From a virus: a DNA stretch of 64,000 nt. The notes below the pieces were generated by a model. The model saw nothing but the letters and a program-made list of their open reading frames with translations. It was not told the DNA's origin and made no database searches. Each line of letters opens with the position of its first letter. Position 1 is the stretch's first letter. Location of the stretch: IMG/VR virus record IMGVR_UViG_3300017613_000484; one strand, given 5' to 3'. Positions 4,888 to 11,512 of this stretch are shown piece after piece. A program made the position numbers and the translations under genes.

Positions 4888-5287
4888 ATAGGATAAATTT
4901 TTCGAAGTCATCAATGAAGGATTTTCTCAGGGGTTCTTTCTTCTGCTTCTCAGTCACCATCCTGAATCTATAGATTCCATTTGAATATTGCTGACAAATA
5001 TTCTTGAACTCTATGAGTGAAAACAACCAAGCTGAAGTTGCATGAAAATTCACAGCGGCAACATAGTCAGCCTTGGCGTTGTCTCTGATCTTCCAGACCA
5101 GTTCAGGAACACTCTTCGGTTTCTTCTGCTTTGGCCCTTGTCTCACAAGCACCCTGATTGTTTCTTTCTTTGTGAATGATTTGATCAACAAGATGTTCCT
5201 TGTGATCAATTCAGTCTCAACACCTTTTGCCAGCAGTTTTTCTTTGACGATGTTTGTTCCTGCTTCTATCAGTTTTTGATTGATCAT
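4886..5287 (-). CDS. Hypothetical protein
   Basis: 133 aa from ATG 5287 (ATGA overlap with the upstream stop). No confident family. Confidence 0.6.
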   Translation of the reverse strand: MINQKLIEAGTNIVKEKLLAKGVETELITRNILLIKSFTKKETIRVLVRQGPKQKKPKSVPELVWKIRDNAKADYVAAVNFHATSAWLFSLIEFKNICQQYSNGIYRFRMVTEKQKKEPLRKSFIDDFEKFIL

Positions 5288-5700
5288 TTTTCTATTCTCT
5301 CCCACCCTGCCTTTTCATAGTTCCATTTATAAATAGGCACAGGTTCTTTTTTGTCTTTCTCGAATCGCAAAATATAGATTGGAATTTTTGATCTGCAACG
5401 ATAGGGATATATTTCCAGGGCTGTCAGAAGTCCTGGCATGGGTTCATGGGTCACACCAAAATCAATTATCTCTTCATCACCTTTTTGCTGTGCTTGCTTT
5501 TCATAGGCAATGGCATATGTTGGAAAGGCGGTTTCCTTTGTGATTTCTCCTGCATGTTCCATTGCATGAAGCTGAAGAACAACTTTGGGAATGTAGAAAG
5601 AAATGGTGATTTCTTCAAGCGGGTTTCTAATCTCTTCAACGATTGTTTGGCCGGAAGAAGGATCACCAAGTTTGGCACCTTTGACAGAAACTTTCTCCAT
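5284..5700 (-). CDS. Hypothetical protein
   Basis: 138-aa ORF, translationally coupled to the next gene. No motif. Confidence 0.6.
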   Translation of the reverse strand: MEKVSVKGAKLGDPSSGQTIVEEIRNPLEEITISFYIPKVVLQLHAMEHAGEITKETAFPTYAIAYEKQAQQKGDEEIIDFGVTHEPMPGLLTALEIYPYRCRSKIPIYILRFEKDKKEPVPIYKWNYEKAGWERIEK

Positions 5701-5762
5701 TGATCAACTCCTTGGAAGGATGCTTGCTCCCCCAGGAAAAAACAGGGGAGCAAGCCTTGCTT

Positions 5763-5972
5763 CTACTGACTGATAATTTTGTTTCCCGCAATCAAGAACT
5801 TGCCGATCCCTTCCAAAACTTTCTGAAGGCCGGTCAGCTTTTTCATATGCTCTTGGTTCACCCAATAGGAATGAACAACACAGGGTGATTGCATACACTT
5901 CATATAATTGCCTTTGTTGATGCAATGCTGGCAGGGATCTTGCGGAAGTTGAATTATGTTGTCCTTTGTCAT
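5763..5972 (-). CDS. Hypothetical Cys/His-rich small protein
   Basis: 69 aa from ATG 5972 (GGGGAAAG upstream). Contains CQHC...C...C..H. Confidence 0.45.
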   Translation of the reverse strand: MTKDNIIQLPQDPCQHCINKGNYMKCMQSPCVVHSYWVNQEHMKKLTGLQKVLEGIGKFLIAGNKIISQ

Positions 5973-5982
5973 CAACTTTCCC

Positions 5983-6393
5983 CTAATTGATTTGGAGATT
6001 TCCACAGGTTCCAGGTGGCGGCTCCGGCTTGGTGCTGGCAGTCACAATTGCTGTGACACACTGAACAGTTCCGGTGTCCCACCTTGAGCCAACAACAACC
6101 TCATAGTCTGTGGAATATTCCAGGTCAGGAATTGTGATGGTGTTGGAAGTTGATTCGATTGTCTGCCACTCAGTTTCTCCAACCTTTCGATAGCTGAGAA
6201 CATAGACAACTCTTGCCAAATCTTCAGGTGTCAATTCCCTCCCAAGTTCAGCACAATCACCAATGGCAGTTGTGTGAGTGGGAGCATCAAAGGTTGCGGT
6301 CATTGTGGTTGCCGCCCATGCTGAAACTGTCATGGCATAGAACAGCACCAAGACCAATGTGATTTTCAGCCCTGCTTCCAGTTTCTTTTTCAT
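5983..6393 (-). CDS. Secreted protein with fibronectin-III-like beta domain
   Basis: 136 aa with an AAGGAGAAAG RBS. Signal peptide LVLVLFYAMTVSAWA|A. Beta-rich segment YVLSYRKVGETEWQTIEST...YEVVV. Confidence 0.7.
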   Translation of the reverse strand: MKKKLEAGLKITLVLVLFYAMTVSAWAATTMTATFDAPTHTTAIGDCAELGRELTPEDLARVVYVLSYRKVGETEWQTIESTSNTITIPDLEYSTDYEVVVGSRWDTGTVQCVTAIVTASTKPEPPPGTCGNLQIN

Positions 6394-6477
6394 TTTCTTT
6401 CTCCTTCTCTTGGGGTTTATAAAAAATTTAATAGAATACTAACACAAACCACACCCTGAAAACAGAGCCTTTTTTAT

Positions 6478-7140
6478 TTATTCCAACTCACTGACAATGG
6501 CTGAATATTTCCCGAATTGGCCGCTTGATGGACTTCCTGGCCGCCAATCCAAAAGGCCAATCAACACTCCCCCAATATCAACAATCTGCTGAAGGACTTT
6601 CTGATCAATGCCGGAAACTTCGGGATCAACTGAAAGCCCAATTGAGCATGTCCAATTCCTGAACAGTGGGCGGCATCTGATGTGTTTTGATTTGCCTATG
6701 GCGGCACGTTTCAGGAAGAGTTCAAACCCCAGATCATTTGCAACTTCTTTGTGTTTTTTGAAATCCAATTCTCCAATCAGGGACTTGATAGGTTGCCAGG
6801 GAATTTTGTTTCCATCTATGATCAGAGGGAATCCAATGTCATCAAGAATGATTTGGGAGGTCAGTTTTTTGAAAGTCTCTTTTCCTTTTCCGGTTTTTAT
6901 CTTCACACCAGCATCCCTGAAATGGGTCATCAAGCAATCAGCATCCAACACCAAATCCTCACCGTTCTGGTAGACATAGCCAACCCAAGTCCAGGGCGGT
7001 GAACGGTCATCTGCTGTCACACTGATTTGTTTGTTGGCCGGATCTTTCCGCCACTCCTTGATGCTTTCATCATATTCCAAATTGTCTTTGTGCATGATCA
7101 GAGGAGTTGTTCCTGTGAAATCAATTTTGAATCTCTTCAT
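6478..7140 (-). CDS. Hypothetical protein with C-terminal glycine-rich loop (possible RAMP/RRM-like fold, unverified)
   Basis: 220 aa from ATG 7140 (the track start at 7167 is GTG). Begins FKIDFTGTTPLIMH and ends DIGGVLIGLLDWRPGSPSSGQFGKY. Confidence 0.7.
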   Translation of the reverse strand: MKRFKIDFTGTTPLIMHKDNLEYDESIKEWRKDPANKQISVTADDRSPPWTWVGYVYQNGEDLVLDADCLMTHFRDAGVKIKTGKGKETFKKLTSQIILDDIGFPLIIDGNKIPWQPIKSLIGELDFKKHKEVANDLGFELFLKRAAIGKSKHIRCRPLFRNWTCSIGLSVDPEVSGIDQKVLQQIVDIGGVLIGLLDWRPGSPSSGQFGKYSAIVSELE

Positions 7141-7167
7141 TCTCTGTTCCTTTCTAATGATCTTCAC

Positions 7168-7941
7168 TTGCTAATGATTGATTGATCTTGCCTTGATCCT
7201 TGCCCTGCCTTGCCTCTCCCGCCTTTCCATGATATGCCACACCCTGCCTTGCCATGATCCTTGCCTCACACCACCTTGCCAGTCCATTCCCCTCCTCACC
7301 GCACAGGGCCGTTCCCTGCCTCACCATTCCAAGGCCCACCATCCCAGGTTCCTTGCCTTTCCTAGCCATGCCGATCCTGGCCGCACCCGACACAACCGAA
7401 CCTTCCCGCCCATTCCGCACCGCACCGCACCTTTCCTTGATCCAAGCCACACCAAACCTCACCAGACCAGACAAGAACATTCCATGTCTCACCACACCCT
7501 TCCTTGTTCCTTGCCGTTCCACTCCTCACCTCTCCTCCCCTCTCAATTCCTCACCGCACCTTCCCACACTTCACCAAGCCATGATCCCTGCCTTACACCA
7601 CCTTGCCACTCCTTGCTTCTCCTCACCTTCCTTTCCATCCCAGACCTCATCCCACAAAGCCAAGATCCTTGCCATGCCATGCCGCACAAGACCATGCTGT
7701 TCCAGGCAACACAATTCCTTGCCCTGCCTCACCATGCCGTTCCCCTCCTTGTTCCTTGCCGTTCCAATCCTCACCTCCCCTTCCCGTTCCTAACACCACC
7801 AAGAACCATCCCATTCCCAACCGTGCCTCACCATGCCGCACCATTCCAAAAAAGCCCTCACCTTGATCCTTGCCGTGCCTTGCCATGCCGAACCGTGCCG
7901 AACAACACCACTCCGGTGCTTGCCAAACACCACCAAGATCC
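7168..7941. repeat. Non-coding C-rich/G-poor degenerate direct-repeat island
   Basis: 8 co-oriented TCCTTGCC, ~15 CTTGCC and ~13 CTCACC. Hand-aligned internal repeats: 7251-7300 vs 7578-7627 (43/50) and 7501-7535 vs 7746-7780 (33/35). A terminal 24-mer sits at 7191-7214 and 7861-7884. Confidence 0.85.
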
Positions 7942-8418
7942 TCACCCGTTTTCTTTTTTATCCAGCAAAGGCAATGGTGCCTTGCTCCTCAGTCTTGCCG
8001 CTTCAATGAACCGCTTGCCAAGATTCTCAATGAAGTCCAGCTTCCTTGACTGTGTTGGTTCAATCTGATCCCTGTCCACACAGCCAGCAACTTGCAAACT
8101 CCTTGTGGCATAGGCGGAAGCCGTTGAGAATTTCTTGGCAGAGATGTCAACCTTGAGATTGTCATCTGCAACAATGAAAGCCTCTCCGCTGACTGTGCCA
8201 ACAACAATTCCTTTGGACAGCAATTCCTTTCTCCAAACATTTGTGACTGTTCGGAATCTCTTTGATCCATAGGGACTCCCAATCATTTCACCAATTTCAA
8301 CATATGGAATCTTTCTGTCACTGGTGAGTGATTCATCTGGGATCTTCTCCCTGATCTTTGCAATGTCTGGCGCAACTGGAATGAAGCCTCTGAAGATTCT
8401 TGCTTTCCTTTGTTCCAT
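7942..8418 (-). CDS. Hypothetical protein
   Basis: 158 aa with GGGAGGG 7 nt upstream of the ATG. No motif. Confidence 0.65.
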   Translation of the reverse strand: MEQRKARIFRGFIPVAPDIAKIREKIPDESLTSDRKIPYVEIGEMIGSPYGSKRFRTVTNVWRKELLSKGIVVGTVSGEAFIVADDNLKVDISAKKFSTASAYATRSLQVAGCVDRDQIEPTQSRKLDFIENLGKRFIEAARLRSKAPLPLLDKKENG

Positions 8419-8430
8419 GAAATGCCCTCC

Positions 8431-9048
8431 CTATTTTAATTTTTCTACTATGGAATTTCTGTCTTTATAGTTGACCTGATAGCAGGAATCAAAAGCAGGA
8501 ATGAGGTTGTCATCATGGGTGACTATTATGAACTGAATGTCCAACCTCTCTGAGAGTTCCTTCAACATCCTGCCAGCCCTTTCAGACAATGCGCCCAACC
8601 ATCTGAAAGGCTCATCAAGTATCATCACATTTCTGGAACGTGGGTTCTCCAAATACCAGAGAACAATTTTTATTCCAAGGGAAATGATGTCAAGGATTCC
8701 GCCGCCGCAGTCATCGGCAGGATTCAATTCCTCATCATTTTCAAAGACAGCAATTCGGCATTCCGTTCTGTTCCTCTTTTGTTCAAGGATCAGCTTGCAT
8801 TGGAAATCCCTTTCTTCATAAACTGATTGAACTGCTGAAGACACAAGGGATTCAATTCTGTCAGTGAAATTCTTTTGAGCCTGTTCACCAGCCAGGATGA
8901 TGATGTCCCTGGCCTGTTCATGATCCCTCATTTGCTCATCCAAAAAATCAATGTCAGATCCGTGCTGTTTGATTTGTTCCCCATAGATTTTTTGTTTTGC
9001 TTTGACCTCTGCCAAGTCTTCCTTCAGATCATTGATCTTCCGTTCCAT
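8431..9048 (-). CDS. sbcC: SbcC/Rad50-type ATPase, C-terminal half (coiled coil + signature / Walker B / H-loop)
   Basis: CGGGILDIISLG (signature-like), VMILDEPF (Walker B) and IIVTHD (H-loop). ATG 9048 has GAGGA 9 nt upstream; the track start at 9063 is TTG. Confidence 0.75.
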   Translation of the reverse strand: MERKINDLKEDLAEVKAKQKIYGEQIKQHGSDIDFLDEQMRDHEQARDIIILAGEQAQKNFTDRIESLVSSAVQSVYEERDFQCKLILEQKRNRTECRIAVFENDEELNPADDCGGGILDIISLGIKIVLWYLENPRSRNVMILDEPFRWLGALSERAGRMLKELSERLDIQFIIVTHDDNLIPAFDSCYQVNYKDRNSIVEKLK

Positions 9049-9277
9049 AGAGTTCATCCTCAATTGTTTTGATCAATCGTTTCATTGCATCATCATTTTT
9101 CTGCAACTCTTCCTTGATTGCTTTGATTCTTTCTTGTGCCTGCTTCTCATCTTCGATGTTGAGAGAATCCTTCATGTCCTGCAAAAGTTCAAGTTCCCTT
9201 TGGCCCTCAATCTTCAGCAAGGCTTTTGTGTTGGCAATCTCTTCTTTGATTGCTTTCAGTTTGCTCTCAAAACTCAT
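9029..9277 (-). CDS. Coiled-coil protein, probably the descending coiled-coil piece of the split SbcC/Rad50
   Basis: 82 aa, entirely heptad-like and charged (KEEIANTKALLKIEGQRELELLQDMK...). ATGA overlap with sbcD. Confidence 0.6.
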   Translation of the reverse strand: MSFESKLKAIKEEIANTKALLKIEGQRELELLQDMKDSLNIEDEKQAQERIKAIKEELQKNDDAMKRLIKTIEDELYGTEDQ

Positions 9278-10206
9278 TTCATTTTCTCCATTAGCATTGA
9301 TGATAAAATCTCTTTGACATTCTCACCACCATCGAATGCCTCAAGAAAGTTTTGCAAGATTGCCAGGAAGTCAGTTCCCTTTTCCTGAACTTCCTTGATG
9401 GAAGAAATAAATTCATCCATCATGTCAATTGATGATGTGGCCCTTTCCGTTTCTCTGCCTGCCACTCTGATGCAGTTGTCATGATGTTCAAAGGGAAGAG
9501 TTGCCCATTGATGATTTATTTTTTTTCCATTTATATCAATGATCCAATATCCAGGTTCATGCAAAAACAGATCAGAGGTTTTCCTGATCATTGGGCCGGA
9601 GTTGACAATCAACCGTTCCTTCTCCTTCTTGCTGAATGTCCTGTGTTGATCCCCACAAATTATGAGGTTGTATTTTGATTGATCCCTCAGAAAGATGTTG
9701 GCCTTTCTATATTCCTGATTGGGATTCAATTCAATGTCACTGATGTTGGCATGGATCACAAGGATGTTGAAAGCCTTTGGATCTTTTGGTTCTGGAATCT
9801 CCTGGCCGAAACTGCAACCATAATAATTGACAGAAGTTTTTTCACTTGTGGAAACCATTGGAGTTTCATTCAGGATCTTGACAAAGCCTGCCGCTTCTAA
9901 AACTCCCAAGGATGTGTTGGATCTTGTTCCTTCAGAATAAAGATAGGTGTCATGCTGACCGAAGACAGCCAGAACAGGTTGATCAAGATAGTCATCAAGA
10001 AGATTGATGATCTTGGGAAGCAGGAACCATGATCTTGGTTTGTCGAATAGATCACCAGCAACAACAAGTTCCACTTCCTCATCATTGTTCTTTATGAAGT
10101 CCAGCAGGCTTTCAAGTTTTTCAATCTGTGTCTCAACCACATTGTCAGCACGGCAACCAAAGTTTTTATCTGTCAAGTGTATATCAGCCAAAGCAATCAA
10201 TCTCAT
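9274..10206 (-). CDS. sbcD: SbcD/Mre11-type nuclease (calcineurin-like phosphoesterase)
   Basis: Motifs LADIHLTD, AGDLFD, GQHD and VIHANI in canonical order. 4-nt overlaps with both neighbours. Confidence 0.85.
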   Translation of the reverse strand: MRLIALADIHLTDKNFGCRADNVVETQIEKLESLLDFIKNNDEEVELVVAGDLFDKPRSWFLLPKIINLLDDYLDQPVLAVFGQHDTYLYSEGTRSNTSLGVLEAAGFVKILNETPMVSTSEKTSVNYYGCSFGQEIPEPKDPKAFNILVIHANISDIELNPNQEYRKANIFLRDQSKYNLIICGDQHRTFSKKEKERLIVNSGPMIRKTSDLFLHEPGYWIIDINGKKINHQWATLPFEHHDNCIRVAGRETERATSSIDMMDEFISSIKEVQEKGTDFLAILQNFLEAFDGGENVKEILSSMLMEKMK

Positions 10207-11180
10207 TGGAAAGACCTCTTGATCAATTGTTGAATGTTGAGTGGGGTTTCACAGGTTGGACAGATTTCTTGTTGACTGAGCAGTTCTTCCAATTCCTTTT
10301 TCAGCCGTTTCAGATTCTCTGTCTTCTTCCTGTTCCTGGCAACAAGGAAAATATATCCTTCAACCAGTTGTTGATCCTGAAGCAATGACTCTCTCTTCTC
10401 TGCCAACTTTTCATGCCTGACAATCTTCTTTTCAACACTGGAAATCCTGGCAGAAATTTCTTCAGCTTCTTTCAACTTCTCTCTGCATTCTTCCAGGTCA
10501 TCAATGAATCCAAGCAGGCTGGTTTCTTCAGCATCCAGGGCTTTCTTCTTTCTGGAAAGAACATCCAATCTGTTTATGTATTTTTCAACCTTGGGAATGT
10601 CAGGAAGATTGGCAACACTGTCTTCAATCTTGTCTCTTTCAATTTCCTTGAATTTGATTTCCCTTGAGAAGCCGCCAATCTTTTTGCTCAGATCAGAAAC
10701 AAATTCATCAACCTGTTCCAGGTGGGTGACTCTGTTGATTGTCTTTGCAATCTCTCCGCTTGAGGAAGTGACAAGGAAGGGAGGATCAAGTTGACTCTGG
10801 AAATTCAACTCACCCAGATTCAACACCTGAAGGATCTTGTCAGGAACAGTCTGACTTCCCTTCCACTTCTCACCGTTCAATTCATAGAAAGTTTCCTTCA
10901 GTGAAATCTTCCCATCCTTTGCTTCGGTCATTATTTTGGTGAGGATTATTTTCTCACCTGAGTTGAGAATCACTTCAACGGTGCAAGGCTCTTTGACATC
11001 GGCTTGGTTGTTGAAATACCTTGCACCCTGTGGGCGGTTGTTTGCTAATAGATTGAAGGCTCTGAGAATTGCAGTCTTCCCACTTTGAGAGATTCCCACA
11101 ATGCCATTGATGCCTGGGGCAAACTCCAATTCAGTTGATTTGTGTGACTGAAAGTTTTTGATGCTGATTGATTTGATCAT
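10203..11180 (-). CDS. sbcC: SbcC/Rad50-type ATPase, N-terminal half ending at the zinc hook
   Basis: IKNFQSH...GISQSGKTAI (Walker A), a Q-loop-like FQSQ and a long coiled coil. The hook CPTCETPL lies 15 residues from the C-terminus. ATG 11180 has an ATGA overlap upstream. Confidence 0.8.
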   Translation of the reverse strand: MIKSISIKNFQSHKSTELEFAPGINGIVGISQSGKTAILRAFNLLANNRPQGARYFNNQADVKEPCTVEVILNSGEKIILTKIMTEAKDGKISLKETFYELNGEKWKGSQTVPDKILQVLNLGELNFQSQLDPPFLVTSSSGEIAKTINRVTHLEQVDEFVSDLSKKIGGFSREIKFKEIERDKIEDSVANLPDIPKVEKYINRLDVLSRKKKALDAEETSLLGFIDDLEECREKLKEAEEISARISSVEKKIVRHEKLAEKRESLLQDQQLVEGYIFLVARNRKKTENLKRLKKELEELLSQQEICPTCETPLNIQQLIKRSFQ

Positions 11181-11512
11181 GATTTTCGCATCTCCCACCT
11201 GTGATATATTTTTGCAAACAGAAGGATGGCAATGCCAAAAATGAAAATGGTCTTGCTTGTTCGGAATTGATCTTGAATGTCTTTCAACTGTGCATTGCAG
11301 GCTTCCAACTCTTTTTGTATTTGTTCAAGTTCAGGCTCCTCTTGTTCAAGTTCAGGCTCCTCTTGTTCAAGTTCAGGCTCCTCTTGTTCAAGCAACTCTT
11401 CCACAAGTTCAGGCTTCCCTTTGATTTCCAACTCTGGCATTTCTAAAATGAGAGAGGCAGAGGCAGGCACAGCAGTTGGAATGGCAAGAAGGATTATCAA
11501 AAGCAAAACCAT
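11177..11512 (-). CDS. Membrane protein with acidic EEPELEQ repeats
   Basis: 111 aa with N-terminal and C-terminal hydrophobic helices. The central (Q)EEPELE x3 is encoded by a perfect 21-bp tandem repeat. Confidence 0.6.
   Translation of the reverse strand: MVLLLIILLAIPTAVPASASLILEMPELEIKGKPELVEELLEQEEPELEQEEPELEQEEPELEQIQKELEACNAQLKDIQDQFRTSKTIFIFGIAILLFAKIYHRWEMRKS
11321..11392. repeat. Perfect 21-bp tandem repeat, 3.4 copies
   Basis: TTGTTCAAGTTCAGGCTCCTC at 11321, 11342 and 11363, plus a partial copy at 11384. Confidence 0.9.

What the first reader, a model, noticed from the sequence alone, without database searches (positions are those of the whole stretch)
7168..7941. 775-bp non-coding, strand-asymmetric degenerate-repeat island (8 x GGCAAGGA on the gene-sense strand) inside the replication/recombination arm
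The island fills exactly the gap between two minus-strand CDS (6478-7140 and 7942-8418). The plus strand is extremely C-rich and G-poor: hand counts give 28 C / 9 G for nt 7201-7260 and 31 C / 4 G for nt 7501-7560, unlike the flanking coding DNA.

The octamer TCCTTGCC occurs 8 times, always in the same orientation (starts 7197, 7258, 7350, 7508, 7666, 7716, 7753, 7867). CTTGCC occurs about 15 times and CTCACC about 13 times. Longer diverged direct repeats are superimposed: 7251-7300 vs 7578-7627 (43/50 identical by hand alignment), 7501-7535 vs 7746-7780 (33/35), and CCTTGATCCTTGCC(C/G)TGCCTTGCC at both ends (7191-7214, 7861-7884).

ORFs are open on both strands and in several frames only because stop codons are rare in this composition. 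The same peptide words (GMVRQG, VRHGM, ARWC.A.IMA) appear in ORFs of different frames, which argues for a nucleotide-level repeat rather than a protein.

In the sense of the surrounding operon the RNA would be purine-rich, with GGCAAGGAUC / GGCAAGGAAC and GGGGAGGUGAGGA words, i.e. many GGA and Shine-Dalgarno-like motifs. Three hypotheses follow, all inference:
(a) A protein- or 30S-sponge RNA. GCAAGGAU resembles the A(N)GGA core bound by CsrA/RsmA and carried in many copies by CsrB/RsmZ-type RNAs.
(b) An iteron array or origin for the initiator/helicase/primase set.
(c) An R-loop-prone segment (G-rich non-template strand, C-rich template strand) that could prime the family-A polymerase, as at ColE1 or T4 R-loop origins.
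Basis: partly seen in the sequence, partly recalled or inferred. Interest (0 to 1): 0.8.

Follow-up and report, generated by a model that had tools for sequence, protein, structure and literature searches.

The report
Phage VIPR guide-RNA repeat array
The 775-base C-rich island most likely encodes about ten small guide RNAs built from five-base "NNNGG" repeats, and it lies between the two protein genes of a VIPR system, a CRISPR-like RNA-guided DNA-silencing system first described in 2026 preprints that phages use against rival phages.

Summary
The island (7168-7941) is non-coding, strongly C-rich on the + strand, and carries TCCTTGCC 8 times against 0.14 expected.

A phase parse splits it into about ten head-to-tail units of 10-18 pentamers. 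Nine of the ten end in CAAGG (or CAGGG) plus a 2-nt spacer.

This matches the vrRNA arrays of VIPR systems (bioRxiv 10.64898/2026.04.26.720920 and .720927).
- **Downstream gene (6478-7140, minus):** a Vipr homologue. It matches SUSP1 Vipr by profile, has a Csm3/Cas7 RAMP fold, and keeps all five GG-recognition residues.
- **Upstream gene (7942-8418, minus):** a predicted winged-helix accessory protein.
- **Linkage:** the trio vipr + this accessory gene + sense-strand arrays recurs in viral contigs found by DNA pattern alone and in 16 genome loci found by protein alone.

The sponge, iteron and R-loop-origin hypotheses are not supported.

Differences from the characterised SUSP1 type are no structured 3' tail, a relaxed Y position, and an accessory protein with no detectable sequence similarity to SUSP1's.

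No natural target was found, so the guide function is inferred. Verdict: new member of a recently described kind.

The parts
7942..8418 (-). vap-like accessory gene (158 aa), predicted winged-helix DNA-binding domain followed by two long helices. Its TGA stop codon overlaps the first GG pentamers of the array.
   Evidence: ORF. No Pfam, PHROG, NCBIfam or PADLOC family. AF2 model has pLDDT 77 with topology H-b-H-H-b-b plus helices 86-113 and 121-146. Foldseek hits are weak (E 0.02-0.5); the ten best are mostly GntR/VanR and MntR-type wHTH regulators, with MarR and OmpR-type and a few unrelated folds lower down. Homologues sit next to vipr in L001, L121, L125, L126, L127 and in 12 of 16 genome loci. 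No sequence similarity to SUSP1 vap1.
7168..7941 (-). The island as flagged: candidate vrRNA array plus its 3' leader. Sense strand is (NNNGG)n.
7866..7937 (-). Unit U1: 14 in-phase pentamers (11 with GG), ends CAAGG + AT.
   Evidence: Viterbi phase parse. The boundary is inferred from the 2-nt phase break.
7804..7865 (-). Unit U2: 12 pentamers (11 with GG), ends GATGG + TT.
7752..7803 (-). Unit U3: 10 pentamers (9 with GG), ends CAAGG + AA. Its 5' start CTTGG TGGTG TTAGG resembles the start of U1.
7665..7751 (-). Unit U4: 17 pentamers (13 with GG), ends CAAGG + AT. Possibly two fused units.
7584..7664 (-). Unit U5: 7 + 8 pentamers with an internal 4-nt slip, ends CAGGG + AT.
7507..7583 (-). 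Unit U6: 15 pentamers (13 with GG), ends CAAGG + AA. Its 3' part is nearly identical to that of U3.
7440..7506 (-). Unit U7: 13 pentamers (10 with GG), ends CTTGG + AT.
7349..7439 (-). Unit U8: 6 + 11 pentamers with an internal slip, ends CAAGG + AA.
7257..7348 (-). Unit U9: 18 pentamers (15 with GG), ends CAAGG + AT. Its 3' part resembles that of U5 (64 nt at 80% identity).
7196..7256 (-). Unit U10: 7 + 4 pentamers, ends CAAGG + AT. Its last 24 nt are nearly identical to the end of U1.
7141..7195 (-). End of the array (CAAGG CAAGA TC) and the untranslated leader with the AGGAA ribosome-binding site in front of the vipr ATG (7140).
6478..7140 (-). vipr gene (220 aa): small RAMP-fold protein inferred to bind one protomer per pentamer.
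   Evidence: phrog_4652. tblastn to SUSP1 ALH47069.1 is full-length, 27% identity, E 4e-9. hhalign gives 99.2% probability, E 6e-20. The A1 profile hits PDB 36pp_D 'SUSP1 Vipr protein' at E 3.5e-16. AF2 pLDDT is 94. All Foldseek hits with E <= 1e-3 are Csm3/Cas7 subunits. H17, R157, D198, W199 and R200 correspond to SUSP1 H17, R138, D177, W178 and R179.

Best explanation
The island is the vrRNA (guide RNA) array of a phage-encoded VIPR system (Viral Interference Programmable Repeat). The operon on the minus strand reads vap (7942-8418), array (7937-7196), vipr (6478-7140).

Shown here:
- The array is a lattice of NNNGG pentamers on the sense strand. It is broken by 2-nt phase shifts into about ten head-to-tail units of 10-18 pentamers.
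- The downstream protein is a homologue of the structurally solved SUSP1 Vipr and keeps all the residues that hold the two guanines.
- The three parts travel together in unrelated phages and prophages.

Inferred from the published SUSP1 and P. fulva work:
- The transcript is cut into RNAs of about 50-95 nt.
- Vipr protomers polymerise along each RNA, one per pentamer. They bury GG(Y) and expose the two variable bases.
- The exposed NN dinucleotides pair with double-stranded DNA that carries the same dinucleotides separated by one skipped base (NNx NNx ...). The filament then sits on the target and blocks transcription.
- The winged-helix Vap assists.
- The likely targets are genes of competing phages, satellites or prophages in the same host, so the array is a ten-guide weapon or shield in phage-phage conflict.
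For: (1) Anatomy. There is 5-nt periodicity far above shuffles. 118 in-phase NNNGG pentamers cover 76% of the island, with GG fixed and all 16 dinucleotides used at NN. Ten units of 10-18 pentamers compare with the published 9-16. The array is intergenic, on the same strand as vipr and directly next to it, as published.

(2) Protein. The A1 profile hits PDB chain 36pp_D 'SUSP1 Vipr protein' at E 3.5e-16. hhalign to SUSP1 ALH47069.1 gives 99.2%, E 6e-20. The AF2 model (pLDDT 94) matches only Csm3/Cas7 RAMPs at E <= 1e-3, including 6IFN_E, the Cas7 query used to discover Vipr. The GG-contacting residues H17, R138, D177, W178 and R179 of SUSP1 align with H17, R157, D198, W199 and R200. Four of these are invariant and W199 is >=90% conserved in 24 homologues.

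(3) Linkage, tested both ways. A DNA-pattern scan for the repeat found L121, L125 and L112 (the same contig as L001), and each has vipr and vap next to the array. L051, picked up from the looser scan, has only a weak partial vipr-like hit next to its array. A protein-only scan found 16 genome loci. 14-15 of them have a sense-strand GG lattice flanking vipr and 12 have this vap family adjacent.

(4) The unit architecture (9-16 pentamers, C(A/G)AGG + AT/AA) is shared by the closer relatives.

(5) No self-target: the best hit in the window is 16/20, equal to the shuffled-order controls, as in the paper's control.

(6) The mechanism itself comes from papers 10.64898/2026.04.26.720920 and .720927.
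Against: - No expression or processing data exist for this locus, so the unit boundaries are inferred.
- No convincing natural target was found with the 1-nt-skip rule. Seven exact target scans of the three collections gave nothing or chance-level hits. A 20/20 match of U3 in three related 30%-GC contigs has an estimated chance probability of 0.15-0.4, and no other guide converges there.
- The third repeat position is a pyrimidine in only 66% of pentamers. The SUSP1 pocket for it is reported to exclude purines.
- There is no structured 3' tail: no inverted repeats, fold z-score -1.0.
- 24% of the island is off-lattice and several units contain degenerate pentamers or internal slips, so some units may be decayed.
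- The Vap has no detectable sequence similarity to SUSP1 vap1, and its fold assignment rests on weak Foldseek scores.
Confidence: 0.9

Rival explanations
1. It is a VIPR-derived array that is partly or wholly decayed, or that serves something other than guiding, for example only as a spacer or leader for vipr expression. On this view most units no longer specify targets.
For: The Y position is relaxed, at 66% pyrimidine against 70-92% C in relatives. Degenerate pentamers, internal slips and 24% off-lattice sequence are present. No target was found. 3' parts are duplicated between units.
Against: vipr is intact with all key residues. The GG lattice remains far above chance over 740 nt. The paper itself reports frequent internal degeneracy and NNNGG variants among vrRNAs. 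The exact-match scans used here were insensitive.
Confidence: 0.07
2. It is a sponge RNA that titrates host CsrA/RsmA, Hfq or 30S subunits through many GGA or Shine-Dalgarno-like words.
For: Many GGA and AGGAG-like words occur on the sense strand. The RNA is predicted to be largely unstructured.
Against: No Rfam family matches. CsrB and RsmZ present GGA in hairpin loops, and here there are no inverted repeats. The strict 5-nt GG lattice and the obligatory linkage to a RAMP protein with GG-binding residues are not explained. Relatives with GGC-only repeats have few GGA words.
Confidence: 0.01
3. It is an iteron array or replication origin, or an R-loop or G-quadruplex-prone segment that primes the phage polymerase (hypotheses b and c).
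For: The non-template strand is G-rich. The island lies in the replication and recombination arm near SbcCD-like and RuvC-like genes.
Against: The period is 5 nt rather than one or two helical turns, and there is no AT-rich unwinding element. Relatives carry two or three arrays around the same two genes. In other genomes the array follows vipr and vap into quite different neighbourhoods (RecT, methylase, integrase). GG dinucleotides, not G3+ runs, dominate.
Confidence: 0.01
4. It encodes a low-complexity protein, for example the 296-aa plus-strand ORF 7178-8068 or the minus-strand ORFs.
For: Long ORFs are open in several frames.
Against: The periodicity is 5 nt, not 3. The plus-strand ORF runs antisense into the vap gene. 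Arrays in relatives are interrupted by in-lattice TAG codons. One database protein (P0025) merely carries a translated array as a spurious N-terminal extension.
Confidence: 0.01

Closest known systems
Type II VIPR system of Escherichia phage SUSP1 (and the P. fulva prophage); bioRxiv 10.64898/2026.04.26.720920 and 10.64898/2026.04.26.720927
   Same: Both have a small RAMP protein homologous over its full length, with the same GG-binding residues. Both have tandem pentamer RNA genes with fixed GG and variable NN on the sense strand next to vipr. Both have a second small accessory gene, a phage location, and roughly ten or more pentamers per unit.
   Different: - Vipr identity is only 27%, and the window protein has an extra invariant GDDRSPPWTW segment.
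- SUSP1 vrRNAs are separate genes of about 100 nt, each with a structured ~40-nt pseudoknot tail. Here ten units abut head to tail, separated only by CAAGG + 2 nt, with no predicted structure.
- The repeat is GGT-NN in SUSP1, against GG(C/T/A)-NN here.
- The Vap is unrelated in sequence.
- The gene order is vap-array-vipr.
'Staggered' vrRNA arrays and NNNGG-type repeats mentioned for other VIPR types in the same paper (fig. S17, S18; text only seen)
   Same: [quoted passage not shown] A relaxed consensus is acknowledged in the paper.
   Different: The figures and type tables are not available here, so it could not be checked which of the seven types this clade belongs to. It also could not be checked whether the published staggered arrays use the CAAGG + AW punctuation.
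Class 1 CRISPR-Cas backbone (Csm3/Cas7 filament on crRNA)
   Same: Both have the RAMP fold with a G-loop and thumb. In both, one protomer binds per fixed number of guide nucleotides and bases are flipped periodically.
   Different: Here there is no CRISPR repeat-spacer array and no cas1 or cas2. There is a single RAMP gene. The guide information is non-contiguous (2 of every 5 nt) rather than 5 of every 6.
CsrB/RsmZ-type sponge RNAs
   Same: Both carry many copies of a short G-rich protein-binding word in one non-coding RNA.
   Different: In sponge RNAs the motifs sit in hairpin loops, spacing is irregular, and the partner is host CsrA. None of these holds here.

Membership tests
VIPR system | A Vipr protein: small, single-RRM RAMP homologous to SUSP1 Vipr, with RRM core, glycine-rich loop and thumb. 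| tested here: met
   The A1 profile matches PDB 36pp_D 'SUSP1 Vipr protein' at E 3.5e-16. hhalign gives 99.2%. AF2 pLDDT is 94 and all Foldseek hits with E <= 1e-3 are Csm3/Cas7. The C-terminal G-rich loop reads GGVLIGLLDWRPGSPSSGQFG.
VIPR system | Residues that recognise the two guanines of each repeat (SUSP1 H17, R138, D177, W178, R179). | tested here: met
   They map to window H17, R157, D198, W199 and R200. Four are invariant and W199 is >=90% conserved in 24 homologues.
VIPR system | Tandem pentanucleotide repeats with conserved GG and hypervariable NN, at least 4 in a row, in intergenic DNA flanking vipr on its strand. | tested here: met
   118 in-phase pentamers with all 16 NN dinucleotides used. 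Periodicity is far above shuffles. The array lies directly upstream of vipr.
VIPR system | Pyrimidine at the third repeat position (GGY). | tested here: inconclusive
   66% pyrimidine in the window (C 35, T 31, A 25, G 10%), against C 70-92% in relatives. The paper allows NNNGG variants. The Y-pocket residues of SUSP1 are not conserved here, or the alignment is ambiguous.
VIPR system | About 9-16 repeats per vrRNA. | tested here: met
   Units are 14, 12, 10, 17, 15, 15, 13, 17, 18 and 11 pentamers by phase parse. Relatives have 9-16. Boundaries are inferred, not mapped.
VIPR system | Invariant structured 3' tail after each repeat tract (type II architecture). | tested here: not met
   There are no inverted repeats. 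The fold z-score is -1.0. The only constant element is CAAGG + AT/AA, plus 3-5 recurring terminal pentamers. So this is not a type II-like array; other VIPR types lack such tails.
VIPR system | Adjacent vap accessory gene with a predicted DNA-interacting function. | tested here: met
   The 158-aa gene has winged-helix topology. Its synteny with vipr is conserved in 12 of 16 genome loci and 5 other loci. The fold evidence is weak, and it is not similar to SUSP1 vap1.
VIPR system | vrRNAs are expressed, processed and bound by Vipr. | not testable with these tools
   This needs small-RNA sequencing and a pull-down.
VIPR system | NN strings match natural DNA targets under the 1-nt-skip rule, and there is no self-targeting. 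| tested here: inconclusive
   There is no self-target above shuffled controls. Exact-pattern scans of the viral, metagenome and genome collections gave nothing or chance-level hits. No mismatch-tolerant search of large collections was possible.
CRISPR-Cas (class 1) | Repeat-spacer array of 25-40-nt repeats, adaptation genes, and several RAMP subunits. | tested here: not met
   The repeat analysis shows only the pentamer lattice. There are no PADLOC or Pfam Cas hits on the two adjacent genes, and the other eight neighbouring genes scanned gave no Cas family in Pfam or PHROGs.
CsrB/RsmZ sponge RNA | Multiple GGA motifs in hairpin loops, with a match to the Rfam models. | tested here: not met
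   There is no Rfam match at gathering score, no inverted repeats, and no excess structure.
Iteron-type replication origin | Direct repeats of about 17-22 bp in helical phase, next to an AT-rich region and an initiator gene. | tested here: not met
   The period is 5 nt. GC is 55-62% throughout. Relatives have multiple arrays per locus.

The most novel reading that the evidence does not exclude
This Vipr clade may use a distinct vrRNA architecture and processing logic. It is known here only from metagenomic contigs and (mostly MAG) genome assemblies, and has less than 30% identity to any isolated-phage Vipr in the phage collection searched. Its array is long, tail-less and head-to-tail. Units are delimited only by C(A/G)AGG plus a 2-nt frame shift, so unit ends might be set by the protein filament or by Vap rather than by an RNA structure. 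The third repeat position is relaxed, which could mean that three rather than two bases per pentamer carry information, or that the pairing rule differs from the 1-nt-skip code. The failure to find targets with the published rule is compatible with this reading but does not support it.
Probability: 0.2. Interest if true: 0.65.

Novelty: new member of a known kind. Interest (0 to 1): 0.42.

Why it matters
VIPR is a newly described mode of RNA-guided DNA recognition, so each well-defined natural locus adds to a small body of knowledge. This locus is unusually large, with about ten guides in one 740-nt array, and it sits in a lytic-looking phage beside recombination genes.

It shows, together with 20 or so relatives, that a tail-less head-to-tail array with CAAGG + AW punctuation is a conserved design. 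It pairs Vipr with a winged-helix protein family that the family libraries searched here do not name. That gives a concrete system for asking how guides are measured and cut without a structured handle, and how strictly the GGY rule holds.

For annotation it also matters. Such islands are currently left unannotated or mistranslated into spurious low-complexity proteins. The vipr profile alone finds about 4,800 clusters at 50% identity in public data.

Tried and rejected
- DNA similarity of 5000-11000 to 50,697 phage records found nothing.
- Rfam at gathering score and tRNA scans found nothing.
- Before the literature hit I considered Chi-site clusters, two-tetrad G-quadruplexes, a TRAP-like 5-nt periodic RNA ligand, immunoglobulin-switch-like R-loop repeats, centromere (parC-type) arrays and pac sites. 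I dropped them once the array proved to be tied to a RAMP protein.
- The first loose pattern scan (14 specified bases) was swamped by chance hits.
- The Vap gene gave nothing convincing in Pfam, PHROGs, NCBIfam, PADLOC or the word-index search.
- The window's own contig could not be retrieved by exact protein look-up, so the sample and host remain unknown.
- Target searches:
They gave nothing above shuffled-order controls.
  - Seven exact 1-nt-skip target scans were run, on U2, U3, U6 and U8b of the window and one L125 unit. They gave no hits or hits that failed extension, frame or context checks.
  - The U3 20/20 hit and the U2 23/24 hit are reported as not significant.
- The VIPR type (I-VII) could not be assigned because the paper's figures and tables are not held.
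Full report
**Observation**

The island is as described. It fills the space between minus-strand ORFs 6478-7140 and 7942-8418. It has 344 C against 97 G in 774 nt. Its GC is 0.55-0.62 in a genome of about 0.42-0.45, and its GC skew reaches -0.70.

TCCTTGCC occurs eight times at the stated positions, always on the + strand. Dinucleotide-preserving shuffles of the island itself give 0.14 copies on average and never more than two (0 of 2000 reach eight). CTTGCC, CTCACC and GATCC are 8-10 times over-represented in the same test. Small slips: 27 rather than 28 C in 7201-7260, and 11 rather than about 13 CTCACC.

The sequence is a lattice. CC on the + strand, which is GG on the gene-sense minus strand, recurs every five bases. 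The spectral peak is at about 5 nt (24.7, against 2.9 at 3 nt). A local 5-nt score is 6.05 against 2.76 +/- 0.29 in shuffles. 118 in-phase NNNGG pentamers cover 76% of the island.

A 5-nt period is incompatible with coding. It also explains why the same peptide words show up in different frames. There are no inverted repeats, no Rfam or tRNA hits, and the sense RNA folds no better than shuffles (z = -1.0). No other such island exists in the window.

**Relatives**

The flanking 220-aa protein (phrog_4652, function unknown) has one relative in the viral collection, L001. That locus has three G-rich (GGCNN)n arrays on the sense strand, sharing the word GGCAAGGATC with the window. One lies before that gene, one between it and a homologue of the window's 158-aa protein, and one after.

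A scan for GGCAAGGATC followed by four phased GGs found further arrays (L121, L125). In each of them, tblastn finds homologues of both window proteins next to the array. L051, picked up from the looser scan, has only a weak partial vipr-like hit beside its array.

In the converse test, a scan of 185,579 species genomes with only a peptide motif of the 220-aa family returned 16 loci. They come from very different MAGs and one isolate (Pseudorhodoferax sp. Leaf274). 14-15 have a sense-strand GG lattice directly flanking the gene, and 12 have the 158-aa family adjacent.

Gene order varies: vap-array-vipr here, array-vipr-vap in L125, vipr-vap-array in L121. The trio stays together while its neighbourhood changes.

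**Identification**

A full-text search for pentanucleotide repeats in phage intergenic regions returned a June 2026 preprint describing VIPR systems (10.64898/2026.04.26.720920). Its main points are these:
- The system consists of a phage-encoded small RAMP protein (Vipr), an accessory gene (vap) and vrRNAs.
- The vrRNAs are made of 9-16 YNNGG repeats with conserved GGY and hypervariable NN, encoded in the intergenic DNA around vipr.
- The NN dinucleotides read double-stranded DNA with one skipped base per repeat.
- The complex represses transcription of competing phages, satellites and prophages.

A companion paper gives the structural mechanism (10.64898/2026.04.26.720927). One protomer binds per repeat, in a helical filament. 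The two guanines are held by H17, D177, R138 and W178, and the pyrimidine sits in a pocket that includes R179.

**Membership tests**

- **Sequence homology.** The window protein matches the SUSP1 protein over its full length (27% identity, E 4e-9). The SUSP1 gene lies between two long intergenic regions that contain GGT-NN repeats. Profile comparison gives 99.2% probability. The family profile hits the PDB chain named 'SUSP1 Vipr protein' at E 3.5e-16.
- **Fold.** The AF2 model (pLDDT 94) matches only Csm3/Cas7 subunits of type III CRISPR complexes at E <= 1e-3. These include 6IFN chain E, the query with which Vipr was discovered.
- **Key residues.** All five GG-recognition residues are conserved (H17, R157, D198, W199, R200).
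- **Accessory protein.** The 158-aa protein has no family assignment. It models as a winged helix plus two long helices. Its Foldseek hits are weak; the best are mostly winged-helix regulators, with a few unrelated folds lower down. This is in line with the DNA-binding Vaps reported for some types. It has no detectable sequence similarity to SUSP1 vap1.

**Anatomy of the array**

A Viterbi parse that rewards GG at pentamer positions 4-5 and penalises phase changes gives ten units: 14, 12, 10, 17, 7+8, 15, 13, 6+11, 18 and 7+4 pentamers. Eight of them end in CAAGG (or CAGGG) followed by a 2-nt spacer AT or AA; U2 ends GATGG + TT and U7 ends CTTGG + AT. The array starts on the vap stop codon and ends 55 nt before the vipr ATG.

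Cleaner arrays in relatives show the same design. L121 has 11, 14, 10, 12 and 12 pentamers. L125 has 10, 14 and 10. L128 has 15, 12, 16, 16 and 14. L307-L311 have 9-16 with CAAGG or CGAGG + AT/AA/ATCG.

The unit size fits the published 9-16 repeats. The absence of any structured tail does not fit the SUSP1 type. It resembles the 'staggered' arrays the paper mentions, which I could not inspect.

In the window the third repeat position is a pyrimidine in only 66% of pentamers, against 70-92% C in relatives. The 3' three to five pentamers recur between units, so the specificity-bearing part may be shorter than the whole unit. Unit ends are inference.

**Targets**

I applied the published rule, replacing GGY by one wildcard.
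- Nothing in the window exceeds shuffled-order controls, which agrees with the paper's no-self-target control.
- Nothing was found in the roughly 1.2 Mb of loci held at the time.
- Seven exact target scans of the viral, metagenome and genome collections gave either no match or matches that look like chance.
- U2's nine-unit core hit unrelated membrane proteins and short ORFs; the best was 23/24 in a 48-aa ORF.
- U3 matched 20/20 in a 316-aa ORF of three related 30%-GC contigs. The seed lies in the part of U3 shared with U6. The estimated chance probability is 0.15-0.4, and no other unit converges on those contigs.

So the defining functional property is untested here, and the scans used could not tolerate mismatches.

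**Verdict**

The island is a vrRNA array of a VIPR system, with vipr and a vap-like gene on either side. That assignment rests on anatomy, protein homology down to functional residues, and two-way genomic linkage. Transcription, processing, filament formation, the pairing rule and the biological targets are inferred from the SUSP1 and P. fulva work.

Its three mechanisms do not.

The kind is known, but only since April-June 2026. This is a new member from a clade seen here only in metagenomic contigs and (mostly MAG) genome assemblies. The clade has 281 clusters at E <= 1e-30 and the wider family 4,782 at E <= 1e-3. Its array design and accessory protein differ from the characterised type.

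Noticed in passing
L126 6700-8950 (GCA_013558375.1, contig JACCDG012077396.1): Downstream of a vipr (42% identical) and vap pair lie at least ten short degenerate pentamer tracts. Each ends in a conserved hairpin, GGGCTCCAATGGAGC, followed by ATTTACAA. Two copies carry a compensatory variant (GGACCCCAATGGGG). They are interspersed with small ORFs. So the same Vipr family also has arrays with a structured tail. The contig also encodes QueC (7-deazaguanine pathway).
   Followed up: partly
L001 5501, 6506, 7172: The identical 32-nt leader TTTTTAATAACACAAATTTAAGGGAGAAAAAA follows each of the three arrays. It precedes the start codons of vipr, vap and the next gene. Each array therefore ends in the same ribosome-binding leader.
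   Followed up: no
P0025 (homologue of the window's Vipr, 312 aa): Its roughly 90-residue N-terminal extension (…MVRHGMAGCGEVW…GCGALRYGLVWRG…) looks like a translated pentamer array. Several other over-long family members (P0039, P0047, P0060) may be the same annotation artefact.
   Followed up: no
window 8431-11198 (minus strand): The SbcC/Rad50-like ATPase appears split. An N-terminal half (10203-11198; AAA_23, SMC_N) and a C-terminal half (8431-9063; SbcC-like C-terminus) flank the Mre11/SbcD-like phosphoesterase (9274-10206) and an 82-aa ORF (9029-9277).
   Followed up: no
window 5284-5700 and 5983-6393 (minus strand): A 138-aa ORF has a weak match to the NrS-1 polymerase-like head domain. 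A 136-aa ORF has an N-terminal hydrophobic stretch that looks like a signal peptide, plus a fibronectin-III-like domain. Both lie just downstream of vipr.
   Followed up: no
window protein 6478-7140, residues 43-52: The segment GDDRSPPWTW is invariant or nearly so in this Vipr clade (D44, D45, R46, P48, W52). It has no counterpart in SUSP1 Vipr in the alignments. It is a clade-specific element of unknown role.
   Followed up: no
phage collection: Distant Vipr homologues (27-29% identity, full length) are present in 123 deposited phage genomes. They include many Felixounavirus/Suspvirus phages of E. coli, Salmonella and Shigella, Gordonia phage Trine gp41 and Mycobacterium phage LittleE gp34. 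All those listed are annotated as hypothetical protein ('Phage protein' in one record) or lie in unannotated stretches or records.
   Followed up: no
L123 9480-9720: This is a different G-rich non-coding stretch, with GGGG/GTG-rich words and several GATCA words, in an unrelated viral contig. It has no 5-nt lattice and was picked up by chance through the GGCAAGGATC word.
   Followed up: no
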